Origin: Candidatus Parcubacteria bacterium
Lineage (GTDB): Bacteria; Patescibacteriota; Minisyncoccia; Phycocordibacterales; CAIZLB01
Reading direction: 5' to 3'
Assembly (NCBI GenBank): GCA_043736035.1
Contig: JAYTDF010000039.1
Coordinates: forward strand, 1-25,960
Length of the DNA: 25,960 nucleotides
Positions 7,957 through 12,100 of the stretch are shown one piece after another (the first letter of the stretch is position 1; every line of letters starts with the position of its first letter). The notes under the pieces are model-generated. The model saw nothing but the letters and a program-made list of their open reading frames with translations, ran no database searches and was not told the origin of the DNA. The position numbers and the translations under genes are program-made.

Positions 7957-8871
7957 ATGTCACAAGAAAATATGTATGATTTAGTAATCATAGGAGGTGG
8001 ACCTGCCGGTTCTGCCGCCGCAGTATACGCTGCACGAAAAAAAATAAAGTCAGCTATCTTAACACCTGAGTTTGGCGGACAAAGTGTAGTATCTGACGAT
8101 ATACAAAACTGGATTGGAACACCTCATATATCCGGATATGAACTTGGTAAATCTTTGGAGAAACATGTGAAGGAATATCAAGGTGATATTTTGCATATTG
8201 AAAAAGGGTATGTTTCTGAAGTCACACAAAATGAAGATAAAACATTTTCTATAAAAACAAGTAAGGATCTTGTACTGCAAGCAAAAGCAGTTCTTGTAAC
8301 AACAGGAAGTGTACGACGAAAACTTGATGCAATCAATGCCGATACGTTTGAACATAAAGGTGTTACCTATTGTGCATCTTGTGATGGACCAGTTTTTACA
8401 GGGAAAGACGTTGTAGTTATCGGTGGAGGAAATGCCGCTTTTGAATCAGCACTCCAGCTCGCCGCATATTGTAAGTCTGTGAAGATTTTAAATAGAACTG
8501 ACAAATATCGAGCTGACGAGATAACGGTTGATAAAGTTATAAAAAATGAAAAGACTGTGATTATTAATAATGCTATTGTCAACGAAGTTCATGGTGAACA
8601 GTTTGTTAATGGATTAACGTATAACGATACAATAAAGCTTGATGTAGAAGGTATTTTTGTTGAGATTGGGCAAATGCCGAATACTGACTATATAGGGTTT
8701 GTAGACAAGAACCCTGCAGGTAACATTGTAGTTGACCCTCGTACACAGAAAGCTTCTGTAGAGGGCGTGTGGGCTGCTGGAGACTGTACTGATGGGTTGT
8801 ATCATCAGAACAATATCGCTGTTGGCGATGCGGTGAAGGCGCTGGAGAATATCTACGTGTGGCTCAATTAA
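7957..8871 (+). CDS. trxB: Thioredoxin-disulfide reductase (TrxB/AhpF C-terminal type)
   Basis: FAD motif IIGGGPAG, redox CASCDG, NAD(P) motif VIGGGNAA, GVWAAGD. Confidence 0.9.
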   Translation: MSQENMYDLVIIGGGPAGSAAAVYAARKKIKSAILTPEFGGQSVVSDDIQNWIGTPHISGYELGKSLEKHVKEYQGDILHIEKGYVSEVTQNEDKTFSIKTSKDLVLQAKAVLVTTGSVRRKLDAINADTFEHKGVTYCASCDGPVFTGKDVVVIGGGNAAFESALQLAAYCKSVKILNRTDKYRADEITVDKVIKNEKTVIINNAIVNEVHGEQFVNGLTYNDTIKLDVEGIFVEIGQMPNTDYIGFVDKNPAGNIVVDPRTQKASVEGVWAAGDCTDGLYHQNNIAVGDAVKALENIYVWLN

Positions 8872-9281
8872 AGAGATTTAAAATAACTATCCAATATCCC
8901 CTTAGCCTCCTCCAAATCCTTATAATTAAAAATTGTCATCCCTTTATTTCCTGACAACATCGCAGACAATCTCTTTCCTTCTTGATCTCTATATAAACAA
9001 ACAATCGGCTTCTTACCATCGGCCCATCCGAGCTCATAACCTACCCCTAGACTTGGTTGAGTTACCTCGGCCACCACAACATCTGCTTCGCTTACCCAAT
9101 CCATGTCTCGCTCATAGATAAACTGATCAGTCTTATTTTGATCTGCGGTTGGTATATTTTCAATGTCACCAATATGTTCAGTTAATACCTGACCGTGATT
9201 CTGGAGATGTTTGATAATATCCATATATAAGTCTTTATCTTCTCTCCCTGCTCGTATGGATGCCGCAAAATATATTTTCAT
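8868..9281 (-). CDS. 2'-deoxynucleoside 5'-phosphate N-hydrolase (DNPH1/Rcl-like; nucleoside 2-deoxyribosyltransferase fold)
   Basis: YFAASIRAGRED, VLTEH, ADVVVAEVTQPSLGVGYELG and LSAM match the DNPH1/Rcl family. Confidence 0.88.
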   Translation of the reverse strand: MKIYFAASIRAGREDKDLYMDIIKHLQNHGQVLTEHIGDIENIPTADQNKTDQFIYERDMDWVSEADVVVAEVTQPSLGVGYELGWADGKKPIVCLYRDQEGKRLSAMLSGNKGMTIFNYKDLEEAKGILDSYFKSL

Positions 9282-9302
9282 AATAAAATTATTTTATCAT
9301 AG

Positions 9303-9330
9303 TTGACACAAATGTGAAATTTGATAGAAT
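9303..9330 (+). promoter_or_regulatory. Near-consensus sigma70 promoter with no protein gene downstream
   Basis: TTGACA (9303-9308), 16-nt spacer, extended -10 TG-a-TAGAAT (9322-9330). Confidence 0.7.
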
Positions 9331-9336
9331 AGAAGT

Positions 9337-9388
9337 ACAAATGGGTTGTCCCGATCGTCCAGGCCTTAAAAGCCTGGATTTACATTTT
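9337..9388 (+). ncRNA. Candidate ~50-nt two-hairpin small RNA convergent with the PemK/MazF-like gene
   Basis: Starts at the expected distance from the promoter. Hairpins GGG-ttgt-CCC (9343-9352) and TCCAGGC-7-GCCTGGA (9358-9378), then a T-rich tail. Confidence 0.45.
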
Positions 9389-9775
9389 ATTAAATAAAAT
9401 ATCTACTACTTTCAATATTATTTTAATATGATCAATTTTTGATATATATCCTATTTTCTTATCCAATCTTTTTGTATCCAAAATTCTAAGTTGAGATATT
9501 AAAGCAGATTGTTCCAGATCTTTAAGTAAAACTTTTACATAATACTTATTGTCCTTATTTTTTGTACTCAAAGGTACACCCCAAAAGATGCTATTATTAA
9601 ATTTTTTTAATATTAAAACAGGTCTTCGAAAATCTTCACCTTTACCATTTTGTTCAAAACCTATATTTTCACCCAATGAACACCAATATACCTCACCCTC
9701 ATTAATAAGAGCAACATTTTCTGATTTATCAATAATTATCTTTGTTATTATCCAATCTATAAAATATTTTACCAT
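9380..9775 (-). CDS. PemK/MazF-family endoribonuclease toxin (orphan)
   Basis: GEVYWCSLGENIGFEQNG...RPVLILK...VPLST...SALISQLRILDTKRL..KIG. Start revised to ATG 9775 (MVKYF), which has TACTAT 6 nt upstream. Confidence 0.85.
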   Translation of the reverse strand: MVKYFIDWIITKIIIDKSENVALINEGEVYWCSLGENIGFEQNGKGEDFRRPVLILKKFNNSIFWGVPLSTKNKDNKYYVKVLLKDLEQSALISQLRILDTKRLDKKIGYISKIDHIKIILKVVDILFNKM

Positions 9776-9844
9776 TCTAATATAGTAAAATAAACCCAAT
9801 AAACTTCTCATAAAGAAATTCTCAAGAAACCCTAAATTTTCCAT

Positions 9845-9874
9845 AAACAAAAAAACTACCTCGATAGTAGTTTT
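9845..9874 (-). terminator. efp terminator
   Basis: Stem AAAACTAC/GTAGTTTT with a 7-nt loop and a T-run on the minus strand, just after the efp stop. Confidence 0.6.
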
Positions 9875-9879
9875 ACATA

Positions 9880-10455
9880 TTATTTCTTTGATGCCCTTTC
9901 TACATACTCTCCGGTCTCAGTATTGATCACAAGAATGTCACCCGGCTCAATAAACATCGGTGCTAATATAGTCGCTCCAGTCGCCAATGTAACAACCTTG
10001 TTTCCACCCTTGGCTGTGTCTCCACGTACTGCTGGAGGAGCTTCGGTAACAGTAAGACTTACTTTTATAGGGAGCTTGACACCAATCGGTATCTCTCCAA
10101 AATATTTAACATCAAGAACTGCATTTGGAAGGATATATTTCTTTGCATCCCCTAATAGTTCGTCTTTCAACATAAACCTATTTGATACATTATCCTCCGA
10201 ACAAAACCACCACTCCCCTTTGTTGGTAAAAAGATATTTCACTTTCTTAACTTCAATCTCAGCCTCCTCAACTTTATCAGTTGCTTGGAATGAGATCTCG
10301 ATAGTACGTCCAGACAGTAAATTTCGCATCTTAACAGCGTTTACTGGTTTTCGCATCTGTTTACGAAAGACATGATAATCTAATACTTCATAGGGTTCAT
10401 CATCGTGAATAATTGTTTTCCTTGTTACTATTTCATTGTATTCGAGCATTGCCAT
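9880..10455 (-). CDS. efp: Translation elongation factor P (atypical loop)
   Basis: EPY.V...; YLF...GEW.F; V.L.VTEAPPAVRGDTA.GG.K...L.TG..I..P.FI..GD...INT.TGEYVER. Confidence 0.95.
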   Translation of the reverse strand: MAMLEYNEIVTRKTIIHDDEPYEVLDYHVFRKQMRKPVNAVKMRNLLSGRTIEISFQATDKVEEAEIEVKKVKYLFTNKGEWWFCSEDNVSNRFMLKDELLGDAKKYILPNAVLDVKYFGEIPIGVKLPIKVSLTVTEAPPAVRGDTAKGGNKVVTLATGATILAPMFIEPGDILVINTETGEYVERASKK

Positions 10456-11525: not shown

Positions 11526-11553
11526 TTGACAATAAAATATATTTTGCTAAAAT
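11526..11553 (+). promoter_or_regulatory. Near-consensus sigma70 promoter with no protein gene downstream
   Basis: TTGACA (11526-11531), 16-nt spacer, extended -10 TG-c-TAAAAT (11545-11553). Confidence 0.7.
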
Positions 11554-11557
11554 ACTT

Positions 11558-11674
11558 ATGTAGTCTGAAGGACAGGAAATTAACAATCGGCTTGCTGCGG
11601 ACTTTGCTTTATGTAAAGTACTTATGGATGAAATGTTGCCATTTTATGGTAATTGCCGTCATCCCAGATTATAT
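11558..11674 (+). ncRNA. Candidate ~115-nt multi-stem non-coding RNA
   Basis: Closing 10-bp stem 11558-11567/11665-11674; hairpin 11601-11619; stem 11626-11631/11659-11664 enclosing hairpin 11635-11653. G.U pairs work on the plus strand only. Confidence 0.55.
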
Positions 11675-11683
11675 CTAAGTTCA

Positions 11684-12100
11684 CTACTCGTTATCGGGTA
11701 GTGTTTTTAGTTTCTTATAGTGCATTGTAACAATTTCAAAATGATCATCTATAAATTCCAAAACTATCCTTATTGATGAAACATCAATTGTTGAAATATT
11801 TTTTAGGAAATAGTGTCTATTATTTATAGTTTCAAATGAGGTGTAACTATTTAACACATTTTCTATATTATCTATAATAATATGCAATCGATATAAGATA
11901 TACTCAACATCATATTTTTCAATAAGTTCAGCTGACTTACTTTCAACAAAATGCTTTAATGCTCTTTTGGAAATGAATACATCTTTATTATTCAATTTAC
12001 AAACGAAAACCAACCCTAAAAAGTCAGCGATTAGTTCACCTTTTTGTAAATTAAGGTATTTAAATACCAGTTTTTTAACTGTGATTATATTTTTAGTGAT
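11684..12100 (-). CDS. Small hypothetical protein, candidate BECR-fold (Barnase/EndoU/Colicin/RelE-like) RNase
   Basis: Pattern vfis..alkH......helix...yflK......irivle......eIvTmH. Frame is open from 12100 (ATC) to TAG 11684; the ORF track calls TTG 12013. Fold assignment is by eye. Confidence 0.5.
   Translation of the reverse strand: MTKNIITVKKLVFKYLNLQKGELIADFLGLVFVCKLNNKDVFISKRALKHFVESKSAELIEKYDVEYILYRLHIIIDNIENVLNSYTSFETINNRHYFLKNISTIDVSSIRIVLEFIDDHFEIVTMHYKKLKTLPDNE

What the first reader, a model, noticed from the sequence alone, without database searches (positions are those of the whole stretch)
9303..9775. Orphan PemK/MazF-like toxin with a convergent, strongly promoted two-hairpin small RNA: candidate RNA-antitoxin module
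Seen: the MazF-like gene has no antitoxin ORF upstream; only about 70 nt separate the efp terminator from its ATG. Immediately past its stop codon, the opposite strand carries TTGACA-16-TG-a-TAGAAT, followed by a GC-rich ~50-nt segment with hairpins GGG-ttgt-CCC and TCCAGGC/GCCTGGA. No credible plus-strand gene follows in the window. On the toxin strand the hairpin has no U-tract, so it is a poor toxin terminator. Established: MazF/PemK toxins normally have protein antitoxins (type II). ToxN, which has the same fold, is neutralised by upstream co-transcribed RNA repeats (type III). Inference: a single convergent sRNA neutralises the toxin protein or its mRNA 3' end, an arrangement that matches neither class well.
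Basis: partly seen in the sequence, partly recalled or inferred. Interest (0 to 1): 0.8.

Follow-up and report, generated by a model that had tools for sequence, protein, structure and literature searches.

The report
MazF-like toxin with convergent small-RNA partner
A MazF-type RNA-cutting toxin gene with no protein antidote is faced by a strongly promoted gene for a roughly 48-base folded RNA; the same pairing recurs in hundreds of tiny uncultured bacteria and on a Campylobacter plasmid, so the RNA is most likely the toxin's antidote.

Summary

Comparative evidence is strong:
- About 80 to 94 of 102 non-redundant toxin homologues, mostly Patescibacteria, carry a convergent near-consensus promoter just past the stop codon.
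- The promoter is followed by a conserved leader (U)ACAAAU, a tetraloop hairpin, and a second hairpin that covaries.
- No conserved protein partner lies upstream in 93 loci.
- Every intact close toxin has the RNA. Six RNA copies survive without a toxin.
- The start codon and peptide are not conserved, so this is an RNA, not a micro-ORF.
- Rfam has no matching family.

A homologous toxin on C. jejuni pVir faces the 77-nt sRNA CJpv3. Published work detected that RNA by dRNA-seq and Northern blot. It probably corresponds to the reported CjrA/CjpT RNA-antitoxin system.

Whether the RNA acts on the toxin protein (type III-like) or on its mRNA (type I-like) is unresolved. I lean slightly towards the protein.

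This scan has reported the same cassette on other genomes many times (63 notes, at least 59 genomes).

The parts
9303..9308 (+). -35 hexamer TTGACA of the small-RNA promoter
   Evidence: TTGACA is kept in 50 of 80 homologous loci, and the spacer is 16 nt in 59 of 80.
9322..9330 (+). Extended -10 element, TGa-TAGAAT
   Evidence: A TAnnnT -10 box is present at the same place in homologues.
9337..9342 (+). Predicted 5' single-stranded leader ACAAAU. The start at A9337, 7 nt after the -10, is inferred.
   Evidence: Information content rises sharply at this point: consensus U-A-Y-A-A-W-Y, then GG. The 6 nt before it are variable.
9343..9352 (+). Hairpin 1, GGG-UUGU-CCC (plus a U9342-G9353 pair)
   Evidence: It starts 12-13 nt after the -10 in 64 of 80 loci and occurs in 33 sequence variants. 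On alignment A4, 89.8% of cells pair, 35 cells change on both sides, and 0 of 500 shuffles reach this.
9357..9379 (+). Hairpin 2, an 8-bp stem with a 7-nt loop, which is the terminator stem of the small RNA
   Evidence: All 8 pairs show changes on both sides among 30 close copies; 93% of cells pair overall, 0 of 500 shuffles match, and slid controls reach 14-54%.
9379..9391 (+). U-rich tail UUUACAUUUUAUU, which overlaps the toxin stop codon (9380-9382)
9337..9385 (+). Whole predicted small RNA of about 48 nt. Both ends are inferred, not measured.
   Evidence: Covariance model R1 matches 9334-9383 at E 1e-17. The median predicted length in the close subfamily is 48 nt.
9380..9775 (-). MazF/PemK-family toxin gene, 131 aa, with an N-terminal helix (residues 2-17) that canonical MazF lacks
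   Evidence: Pfam PF02452 at E 5.5e-11. The AlphaFold2 model has pLDDT 86.5. The best Foldseek matches are MazF-mt1, S. aureus MazF and B. subtilis MazF, with TM 0.6-0.73. Arg51-Pro52 is invariant and aligns to the catalytic Arg of MazF.
9782..9787 (-). Predicted toxin -10 box TACTAT, 6 nt before the ATG, implying a leaderless mRNA with a weak -35. Inferred.
   Evidence: A TAnnnT box lies 6-8 nt before the ATG in close homologues.
9800..9828 (-). Conserved upstream block with phased CTTTA / TTCTTTA repeats, of unknown role (promoter UP-like element or operator)
   Evidence: It is conserved upstream of close homologues although the flanking genes differ.
9848..9874 (-). efp terminator, which marks the upstream boundary of the cassette

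Best explanation
This is a self-contained two-gene toxin-antitoxin cassette.

The toxin is a MazF-family endoribonuclease made from a weak, leaderless promoter. The antitoxin is a convergent RNA of about 48 nt made from a near-consensus promoter, so it should be in large excess.

I infer that the RNA's 5' module, a single-stranded (U)ACAAAU leader clamped by a stable tetraloop hairpin, is bound by the toxin as a substrate-like decoy. That is a type III-like action on the protein. The terminator half overlaps the toxin's stop codon and is therefore also antisense to the toxin mRNA's 3' end. This overlap may add a second, type I-like layer of control.

Shown here:
- the sequence features;
- conservation and covariation of the RNA;
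- its exclusive linkage to this toxin clade;
- the absence of a protein partner.

Inferred, not shown: transcription in this organism, toxicity, neutralisation, and which molecule the RNA acts on.

I put about 0.75 on 'the RNA is the antitoxin'. The confidence given here, 0.45, is for the protein-binding route being involved.
For: 1. The RNA gene is conserved with the toxin. By a strict rule, 80 of 102 non-redundant loci carry it, and about 94 of 102 by eye. The loci span Patescibacteria lineages with toxins down to 39% identity.
2. Structure is under selection, not coding. Hairpin 2 has 8 of 8 pairs with double-sided changes, and hairpin 1 occurs in 33 variants. The putative start codon is a non-start codon (ACG, TCG, TGG and others) in 24 of 64 loci, and peptide length ranges from 2 to 33 aa.
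3. No conserved upstream ORF exists in 93 loci.
4. Presence is asymmetric. All intact close-group toxins in 37 genomes have the RNA. Six RNA genes persist with the toxin deleted.
5. Within the close subfamily the leader and hairpin 1 are almost invariant, while hairpin 2 drifts freely. Conservation begins exactly at the predicted transcription start. This points to a sequence-specific reader.
6. Four toxin subfamilies in this one genome each have a different RNA body.
7. In distant subfamilies a bidirectional terminator sits at the toxin stop codon. The leader, hairpin 1 and hairpin 2 then lie outside the toxin transcript.
8. The hairpin loops are UUCG or GNRA tetraloops. From general RNA knowledge, such loops suit scaffolds and are poor for kissing interactions.
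9. The leader resembles the UACAU site of the closest solved relatives, B. subtilis and S. aureus MazF. The structural match is; the cleavage site is from my own knowledge of those enzymes.
10. The homologous pVir locus gives expression data. The 77-nt sRNA CJpv3 starts at 31119 on the minus strand, exactly the start I predicted from the promoter. Its TSS step height is 16164, against 28 for the toxin TSS (PMC3656092 Tables S5 and S12).
Against: - No transcript data exist for this organism.
- No binding test was possible, because the complex prediction was not run for RNA.
- The convergent, 3'-overlapping layout is kept in essentially every locus. A purely protein-directed RNA would not require that.
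- The pVir precedent is described in the literature as a type I (antisense) system (PMC10470494, PMC7826846).
- Toxin genes show no avoidance of the leader motif.
- Paralogues in one genome share the same leader and hairpin 1. If that module is the binding site, they would cross-react.
- Part of the hairpin 1 evidence is circular, because the loci were picked by requiring a hairpin.
Confidence: 0.45

Rival explanations
1. Type I-like antisense control only. The RNA pairs with the 3' end of the toxin mRNA through the shared terminator and 3' UTR. RNase III or a 3' exonuclease then destroys the mRNA, or translation termination is blocked. The conserved leader and hairpin 1 only tune the RNA's own stability or turnover.
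For: - The strictly convergent, overlapping layout is kept in nearly all loci and on pVir.
- In this window there is no good toxin-strand terminator. The toxin mRNA should therefore carry the full complement of the RNA.
- In distant members an A-rich single-stranded linker is complementary to the toxin transcript's U-tail.
- An RNase III gene is present in this genome.
- CjrA on pVir is described as an antisense type I antitoxin (PMC10470494).
- Hairpin 2 differs between paralogues in one genome, which would give automatic specificity.
Against: - A cis-encoded antisense RNA needs no sequence conservation, yet the leader and hairpin 1 are nearly invariant in the close subfamily.
- The UUCG and GNRA loops suit kissing contacts poorly.
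- In about half of the distant members the conserved 5' half lies beyond a bidirectional terminator, outside the toxin transcript.
- There is no extra complementarity to the toxin 5' region or CDS beyond non-cognate pairs. Mean dG is -13.2 against -12.6 kcal/mol, p = 0.18.
- The toxin is a 131-aa soluble RNase, not a small membrane peptide.
Confidence: 0.3
2. The module is real but the RNA is not an antitoxin. It could be a substrate, cofactor or sensor of the MazF-like protein, for example in a phage-defence or RNA-processing role, and the protein may not be toxic on its own.
For: - Other structured RNAs in this genome face DUF3800 and other small genes in the same layout.
- For the DUF3800 RNA motifs the literature offers no function (PMC5737381).
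- Homologues occur on Campylobacter prophages and plasmids.
Against: - Multi-copy, patchy, mobile distribution: 8 copies in 0.67 Mb with different flanking genes.
- The toxin is never found without the RNA, while the RNA does occur without the toxin. Both patterns are the classic signature of toxin-antitoxin pairs.
- The catalytic Arg is conserved.
Confidence: 0.1
3. The hairpins are only the toxin gene's 3' UTR and terminator, and the plus-strand promoter is a chance or unrelated site. For example, it may be part of the divergent promoter region of the neighbouring deoxyribosyltransferase-like gene.
For: - A minus-strand promoter-like site (9318-9291) for the neighbouring gene overlaps the plus-strand promoter.
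- The minus strand also folds well here, with z = -3.26.
Against: - The promoter is kept at a fixed distance from hairpin 1 in loci whose neighbours are all different.
- The background rate of such promoters is 6.9%.
- On pVir the matching promoter gives an abundant, Northern-verified sRNA.
- Orphan copies keep the promoter after the toxin is lost.
Confidence: 0.04
4. The transcript is a leaderless mRNA for a micro-protein (here MGCPDRPGLKSLDLHFIK) that acts as a peptide antitoxin.
For: - ATG 9341-9343 lies 4 nt from the predicted start.
- The MGYPDRP prefix recurs in the close subfamily.
Against: - The codon is ACG, TCG, TGG, ATT or AAT in 24 of 64 loci.
- Peptide length ranges from 2 to 33 aa, with no conserved C-terminal part.
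- Stem changes are compensatory at the RNA level but non-synonymous at the protein level, for example GGG/CCC to GGA/UCC, which turns Gly-Pro into Asp-Ser.
Confidence: 0.03

Closest known systems
CjrA/CjpT of Campylobacter jejuni 81-176 plasmid pVir (Shen et al. 2016, Mol Microbiol 101:909; not held, cited through PMC10470494 and PMC7826846), together with the sRNA CJpv3 of Dugar et al. 2013 (PMC3656092)
   Same: - pVir carries a homologue of this toxin, CJJ81176_pVir0047: 45.5% identity over the core and the same N-terminal FDEWNxxKK helix.
- A convergent promoter and a multi-hairpin RNA lie just past its stop codon.
- That RNA is experimentally detected: 77 nt, Northern-positive, with about 580 times the TSS signal of the toxin.
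- An RNA antitoxin is reported for pVir.
   Different: - I could not read Shen et al., so the claim that CjpT is pVir0047 and CjrA is CJpv3 is likely but unverified.
- The RNAs share no detectable sequence or structure. Model R1 finds nothing significant on pVir.
- The pVir RNA has three hairpins and no ACAAAU-hairpin 5' module.
- The pVir toxin mRNA has a 26-nt leader, whereas the toxin here looks leaderless.
Type II MazEF / PemIK (Kis-Kid) toxin-antitoxin systems
   Same: - The toxin fold and family: Pfam PF02452, with MazF structures as the best matches.
- The catalytic Arg is conserved.
- Public records name these genes type II PemK/MazF toxins.
   Different: - There is no MazE/PemI-like or any other conserved protein gene next to the toxin in 93 loci.
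- The toxin has an extra N-terminal helix.
- A conserved RNA gene takes the antitoxin's place.
Type III systems ToxIN, CptIN and TenpIN, and the non-repeat type III AvcID (PMC10511110)
   Same: An endoribonuclease toxin of the wider MazF/Kid-like fold is paired with a structured, non-coding RNA that contains a substrate-like motif. AvcI shows that a type III antitoxin need not be a repeat array.
   Different: - The RNA is single-copy with no tandem repeats.
- It is convergent and downstream with its own promoter, not upstream and co-transcribed.
- The toxin is a true PemK/MazF family member, not ToxN, CptN or TenpN.
Convergent type I systems with 3' overlap or a shared terminator (B. subtilis txpA/RatA and bsrG/SR4; E. 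faecalis par RNA I/RNA II) - from my own knowledge
   Same: The toxin and RNA genes are tail-to-tail, with overlapping 3' ends or a shared bidirectional terminator, and the RNA promoter is the stronger one.
   Different: - The toxin is a 131-aa soluble RNase, not a small hydrophobic peptide.
- No par-like complementarity to the 5' end was found.
- The RNA's non-overlapping half is the conserved part.
DUF3800-I to XI, drum and skipping-rope RNA motifs (Weinberg et al. 2017, PMC5737381)
   Same: These are terminator-ended structured RNAs tied to one specific neighbouring protein gene. This genome has such pairs too, with weak Rfam hits to DUF3800-IX and skipping-rope.
   Different: - Those RNAs lie on either side and in either orientation, and have no proposed function.
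- None matches this RNA. Rfam 15 gave no hit.

Membership tests
Type II MazEF/PemIK | Toxin of the MazF/PemK fold with the catalytic Arg | tested here: met
   PF02452 at E 5.5e-11. Foldseek best hits are MazF-mt1, S. aureus MazF and B. subtilis MazF. Arg51 aligns to the MazF catalytic Arg and is invariant in 20 homologues.
Type II MazEF/PemIK | Adjacent, co-transcribed protein antitoxin gene (MazE/PemI) | tested here: not met
   There is no ORF between the efp terminator and the toxin ATG. In 93 non-redundant loci the largest cluster of upstream ORFs covers 4 loci and is an ABC-F ATPase.
Type III (ToxIN/CptIN/TenpIN) | Antitoxin RNA is a tandem repeat array upstream of, and co-transcribed with, the toxin | tested here: not met
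   No tandem repeat in 9100-10000. The RNA is single-copy, downstream, on the opposite strand, and has its own promoter.
Type III (ToxIN/CptIN/TenpIN) | Toxin belongs to the ToxN, CptN or TenpN families | tested here: not met
   Pfam gives PemK_toxin only. The fold search is led by MazF proteins.
Type III (any) | RNA binds and inhibits the toxin protein | not testable with these tools
   The complex prediction was not run for a protein-RNA job. Pull-down, EMSA or trans-rescue experiments are needed.
Type I | Antitoxin is an RNA complementary to the toxin mRNA | tested here: met
   This holds by geometry. The RNA's 3' end overlaps the toxin stop codon, and with no toxin-strand terminator it overlaps the whole 3' UTR. 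The median overlap is 4.5 nt of CDS in the close group and 24 nt in the distant group. Expression of either strand was not tested.
Type I | Toxin is a small (under about 60 aa) hydrophobic peptide | tested here: not met
   The toxin is a 131-aa soluble MazF-fold protein.
CjrA/CjpT-like (pVir) | Toxin homologous to the pVir PemK-like protein that faces sRNA CJpv3 | tested here: met
   tblastn at E 1e-12, 45.5% identity, with a shared N-terminal helix motif. Whether this protein is CjpT is not verified.
CjrA/CjpT-like (pVir) | RNA homologous to the pVir sRNA | tested here: not met
   Model R1 with filters off finds no significant match on the pVir or Nitratiruptor loci; the best is 9.6 bits at E 0.07, located elsewhere.
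Any Rfam 15 family | Match to a curated covariance model | tested here: not met
   No hit at gathering score in the window. There was nothing relevant at E up to 10 on 9280-9460, and nothing at the RNA site in 20 homologous loci.

The most novel reading that the evidence does not exclude
A true MazF-family RNase is held inactive by direct binding of a single-copy, non-repeat small RNA that offers a clamped substrate-like leader. This would be a new type III-like class. It would also be one instance of a general habit of Patescibacteria: pairing toxin-like genes (MazF-like, DUF3800, a 109-aa family and others) with convergent structured RNAs instead of protein antitoxins.
Probability: 0.4. Interest if true: 0.8.

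Novelty: new member of a known kind. Interest (0 to 1): 0.6.

Why it matters
- **Annotation.** Public annotation calls these genes type II PemK/MazF toxins, and their partner RNA is in no RNA catalogue. Hundreds of species-level genomes therefore carry unannotated RNA genes and mis-typed toxin-antitoxin modules.
- **Biology.** If the RNA binds the protein, MazF, the textbook type II toxin, would also have an RNA-antitoxin branch. The strongly conserved 5' module would then give a ready handle on RNA recognition by MazF enzymes.
- **Candidate-phyla bacteria.** This 0.67 Mb genome holds about eight copies of the toxin. These cassettes, with the DUF3800-type and other RNA-partnered genes, may make up a sizeable share of its accessory gene content.
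- **Testability.** The Campylobacter plasmid and prophage homologues make the question testable in a cultivable host.

Tried and rejected
- **Rfam.** Gathering and permissive thresholds were tried on the window and on 20 homologous loci. No family matched.
- **tRNA/tmRNA scan.** None found.
- **NCBIfam and PADLOC.** Only a sub-threshold MazF hit; no defence-system model matched.
- **Public RNA-seq.** Only DNA metagenome runs hold the window, and no RNA run was listed.
- **Complex prediction** (toxin dimer plus RNA). The job was not folded for this kind of complex, so it is no evidence either way.
- **par-like trans complementarity.** The RNA was compared with the toxin 5' region and CDS. Cognate pairs are no better than non-cognate or reversed controls.
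- **Avoidance of the leader motif.** ACAAAU-type, ACA and UACAU motifs were counted in 98 toxin genes against synonymous shuffles. There is no depletion (z from -0.4 to +3.1).
- **Micro-ORF reading.** Rejected.
- **Protein antitoxin upstream.** Rejected.
- **HicA-like ORF next to two orphan RNA copies.** It has its own HicB-like partner, so it is not the RNA's target.
- **Shen et al. 2016.** Not held under its DOI or PubMed id.
- **A 'pemK motif' that I recalled from memory.** It could not be found in the paper library.

Full report
**What is in the window.**

The minus strand carries three genes in a row:
- efp (9880-10455);
- a 131-aa PemK/MazF-family gene (9380-9775; Pfam PF02452, E 5.5e-11);
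- a nucleoside deoxyribosyltransferase-like gene (8868-9281).

The efp terminator (9848-9874) ends about 70 nt before the toxin ATG, and no ORF fits between them.

The plus strand, just past the toxin stop, reads as follows:
- TTGACA (9303-9308), a 16-nt spacer, then TGa-TAGAAT (9322-9330). This scores 11/12 and is the best promoter-like site in the region.
- ACAAAU, then hairpin 1 GGG-UUGU-CCC (9343-9352).
- The linker GAUCG, then an 8-bp hairpin 2 (9357-9379).
- A U-rich tail that covers the toxin stop codon.

The window has no Rfam family and no tRNA.

**The toxin.**

An AlphaFold2 model (pLDDT 86.5) shows an N-terminal helix (residues 2-17), a MazF-type barrel and a C-terminal helix. The best structural matches are M. 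tuberculosis MazF-mt1, S. aureus MazF and B. subtilis MazF, not ToxN-type proteins.

Arg51-Pro52 aligns to the catalytic Arg of MazF and is invariant among 20 homologues. A Ser/Thr pair after Pro68 is also kept. The protein therefore looks like an active RNase.

**The RNA gene travels with the toxin.**

The toxin is multi-copy:
- 8 matches in this 0.67 Mb genome;
- matches in 38 of 61 related genomes;
- 337 relatives in a one-genome-per-species collection, nearly all labelled Patescibacteria lineages;
- more than 600 protein clusters.

I read the opposite strand past each stop codon. Nearly every homologue, down to 39% identity, carries the same elements in order:
- a TTGACA-16-TAnnnT promoter;
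- a conserved leader;
- a GC-rich tetraloop hairpin;
- a second hairpin.

Distant members add an A-rich linker and a third hairpin that straddles the toxin stop codon.

A strict rule finds this in 80 of 102 non-redundant loci. Most of the misses still show it by eye, with weaker promoters or probable TGA recoding in Gracilibacteria. That brings the count to about 94 of 102.

As a control, only 6.9% of ORFs in this genome have a convergent promoter scoring 10/12 or better within 150 nt.

**It is an RNA, and its structure is selected.**

On a plain MAFFT alignment of 30 close copies:
- 93% of cells pair;
- all 8 pairs of hairpin 2 change on both sides;
- 0 of 500 shuffles reach the observed values;
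- slid controls fall to 14-54% paired.

Hairpin 1 starts 12-13 nt after the -10 in 64 of 80 loci. It occurs in 33 sequence variants, such as GGG/CCC, GGC/GCC, GCC/GGC and CGAC/GUCG. On 75 sequences it is 89.8% paired, with 35 double-sided changes. That set was chosen by requiring a hairpin, so the figure is partly circular.

The apparent ATG is a non-start codon in 24 of 64 loci, and the 'peptide' runs from 2 to 33 aa. The micro-ORF reading therefore fails.

Information content rises exactly at the predicted transcription start. The consensus is U-A-Y-A-A-W-Y followed by GG, and the six bases before it are free to vary.

**There is no protein partner, and presence is asymmetric like an antitoxin's.**

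Upstream ORFs in 93 loci share no family beyond a 4-locus cluster. Flanking genes differ from copy to copy.

Model R1 finds 34 copies in 37 related genomes:
- 28 lie tail-to-tail with a toxin homologue;
- 6 are orphans with an intact promoter and hairpins, but with only a remnant of about 15 codons of the toxin's 3' end, or none.

No intact close-group toxin lacks the RNA.

**An experimental anchor.**

Earlier notes of this scan pointed to Campylobacter, and I tested that lead.

pVir of C. jejuni 81-176 carries a homologue at 30634-31038, CJJ81176_pVir0047. It is 45.5% identical over the core and has the same N-terminal helix motif. A convergent TTGATT-17-TGaTATAAT promoter and a three-hairpin RNA follow its stop codon.

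Dugar et al. 2013 (PMC3656092) supply the expression data:
- They list the sRNA CJpv3 on the pVir minus strand, from 31119 to 31043, 77 nt long, next to pVir0047 and detected by Northern blot.
- They record a TSS at 31119 with step height 16164, against 28 for the toxin TSS at 30608.

That start is the one I had predicted from the promoter.

Two papers state that pVir carries CjrA, an antisense RNA antitoxin of a type I system (PMC10470494, PMC7826846, citing Shen et al. 2016). I could not read Shen et al., so the claim that CjpT is pVir0047 is likely but unverified.

Model R1 does not match the pVir RNA. Homologues also sit on Helicobacter and Nitratiruptor plasmids and on Campylobacter prophages.

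**How it most likely works.**

That the RNA is the antitoxin I rate at about 0.75. The route is open.

Evidence for action on the protein:
- The leader and hairpin 1 are nearly invariant in the close subfamily, while hairpin 2 drifts.
- Four toxin subfamilies in this one genome have four different RNA bodies.
- In about half of the distant members a bidirectional terminator leaves the conserved 5' half outside the toxin transcript.
- The loops are UUCG or GNRA.
- The leader resembles the UACAU site of the nearest characterised MazF enzymes (my own knowledge).

Evidence for antisense action:
- The convergent overlap is kept almost everywhere.
- Here the toxin strand has no good terminator.
- RNase III is encoded in this genome.
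- The pVir system is called type I.

Several tests were uninformative. These were trans complementarity, motif avoidance, RNA-seq and complex prediction.

I commit, weakly (0.45), to a substrate-mimic RNA that binds the toxin, with the 3' overlap as a possible second layer. Antisense-only control is rated 0.3.

**Novelty.**

The module fails the defining tests of type II (no protein antitoxin), of classical type III (no repeats, different toxin family) and of classical type I (the toxin is not a small peptide).

It does have a probable characterised relative on pVir, and non-repeat type III antitoxins are known (AvcI, PMC10511110). I therefore file it as a new member of a barely described kind.

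Three things appear not to be described in Rfam 15 or in the paper library I could search:
- its breadth in Patescibacteria;
- its distinct RNA family;
- the open mechanism.

The scan has already reported the same cassette on other genomes many times (63 notes in at least 59 genomes).

Noticed in passing
window 11526-12013 (ORF 11684-12013 on the minus strand; RNA on the plus strand): A second cassette has the same layout. A 109-aa ORF is faced by a TTGACA-16-TAAAAT promoter and an RNA of about 115-130 nt. In 18 homologous loci the RNA keeps long conserved blocks, covarying inner hairpins and a closing long-range helix. The ORF is multi-copy within the genus (5 matches in this genome). Pfam, NCBIfam and PADLOC give no clear family.
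   Followed up: partly
G000 contigs C48:3590-4219, C53:14927-15514, C69:3797-4432 (L132-L134): Three DUF3800-like genes (N-terminal IDESGD motif) each face a convergent promoter scoring 11/12 and a structured RNA. One RNA (L132:1123-1189, minus strand) gives a sub-threshold Rfam hit to DUF3800-IX (28.8 bits). Another small ORF (C87:12007-12495) has a weak skipping-rope hit nearby. Convergent RNA partners may be a general theme of toxin-like genes in this genome.
   Followed up: partly
G000:C5:1490-1538 (L131) and G013:C96 (L128): Orphan copies of the small RNA, with an intact promoter and only a remnant of the toxin's 3' end, lie beside a HicA-like (77 aa) and HicB-like gene pair. In related genomes the same site after lexA holds an intact toxin-RNA cassette.
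   Followed up: partly
window 9800-9828 (minus strand): A conserved block with phased CTTTA / TTCTTTA repeats lies upstream of the toxin's -10 box in the close subfamily, although the flanking genes differ. It may be an UP-like element or an operator for an unknown regulator. An earlier scan note (e1-861872) saw the same motif.
   Followed up: partly
L011, L018, L014, L024, L123 (RNA 5' ends): Some copies carry an extra small hairpin inserted between the transcription start and the conserved leader and hairpin 1. The 5' end of the RNA is therefore not always the leader itself.
   Followed up: no
window 9291-9330: The small-RNA promoter (plus strand, 9303-9330) and a promoter-like site for the deoxyribosyltransferase-like gene (minus strand, 9318-9291, TTCACA-16-TAAAAT with TG) overlap back to back. 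The two may compete for RNA polymerase.
   Followed up: no
L076, L083, L088, L111 (Gracilibacteria / Peribacteria-labelled loci): Toxin homologues seem to lack the RNA when the ORF is ended at TGA. In lineages that read TGA as Gly the true stop lies further on, and an RNA-like hairpin is seen downstream in L083. These loci need re-reading with code 25.
   Followed up: no
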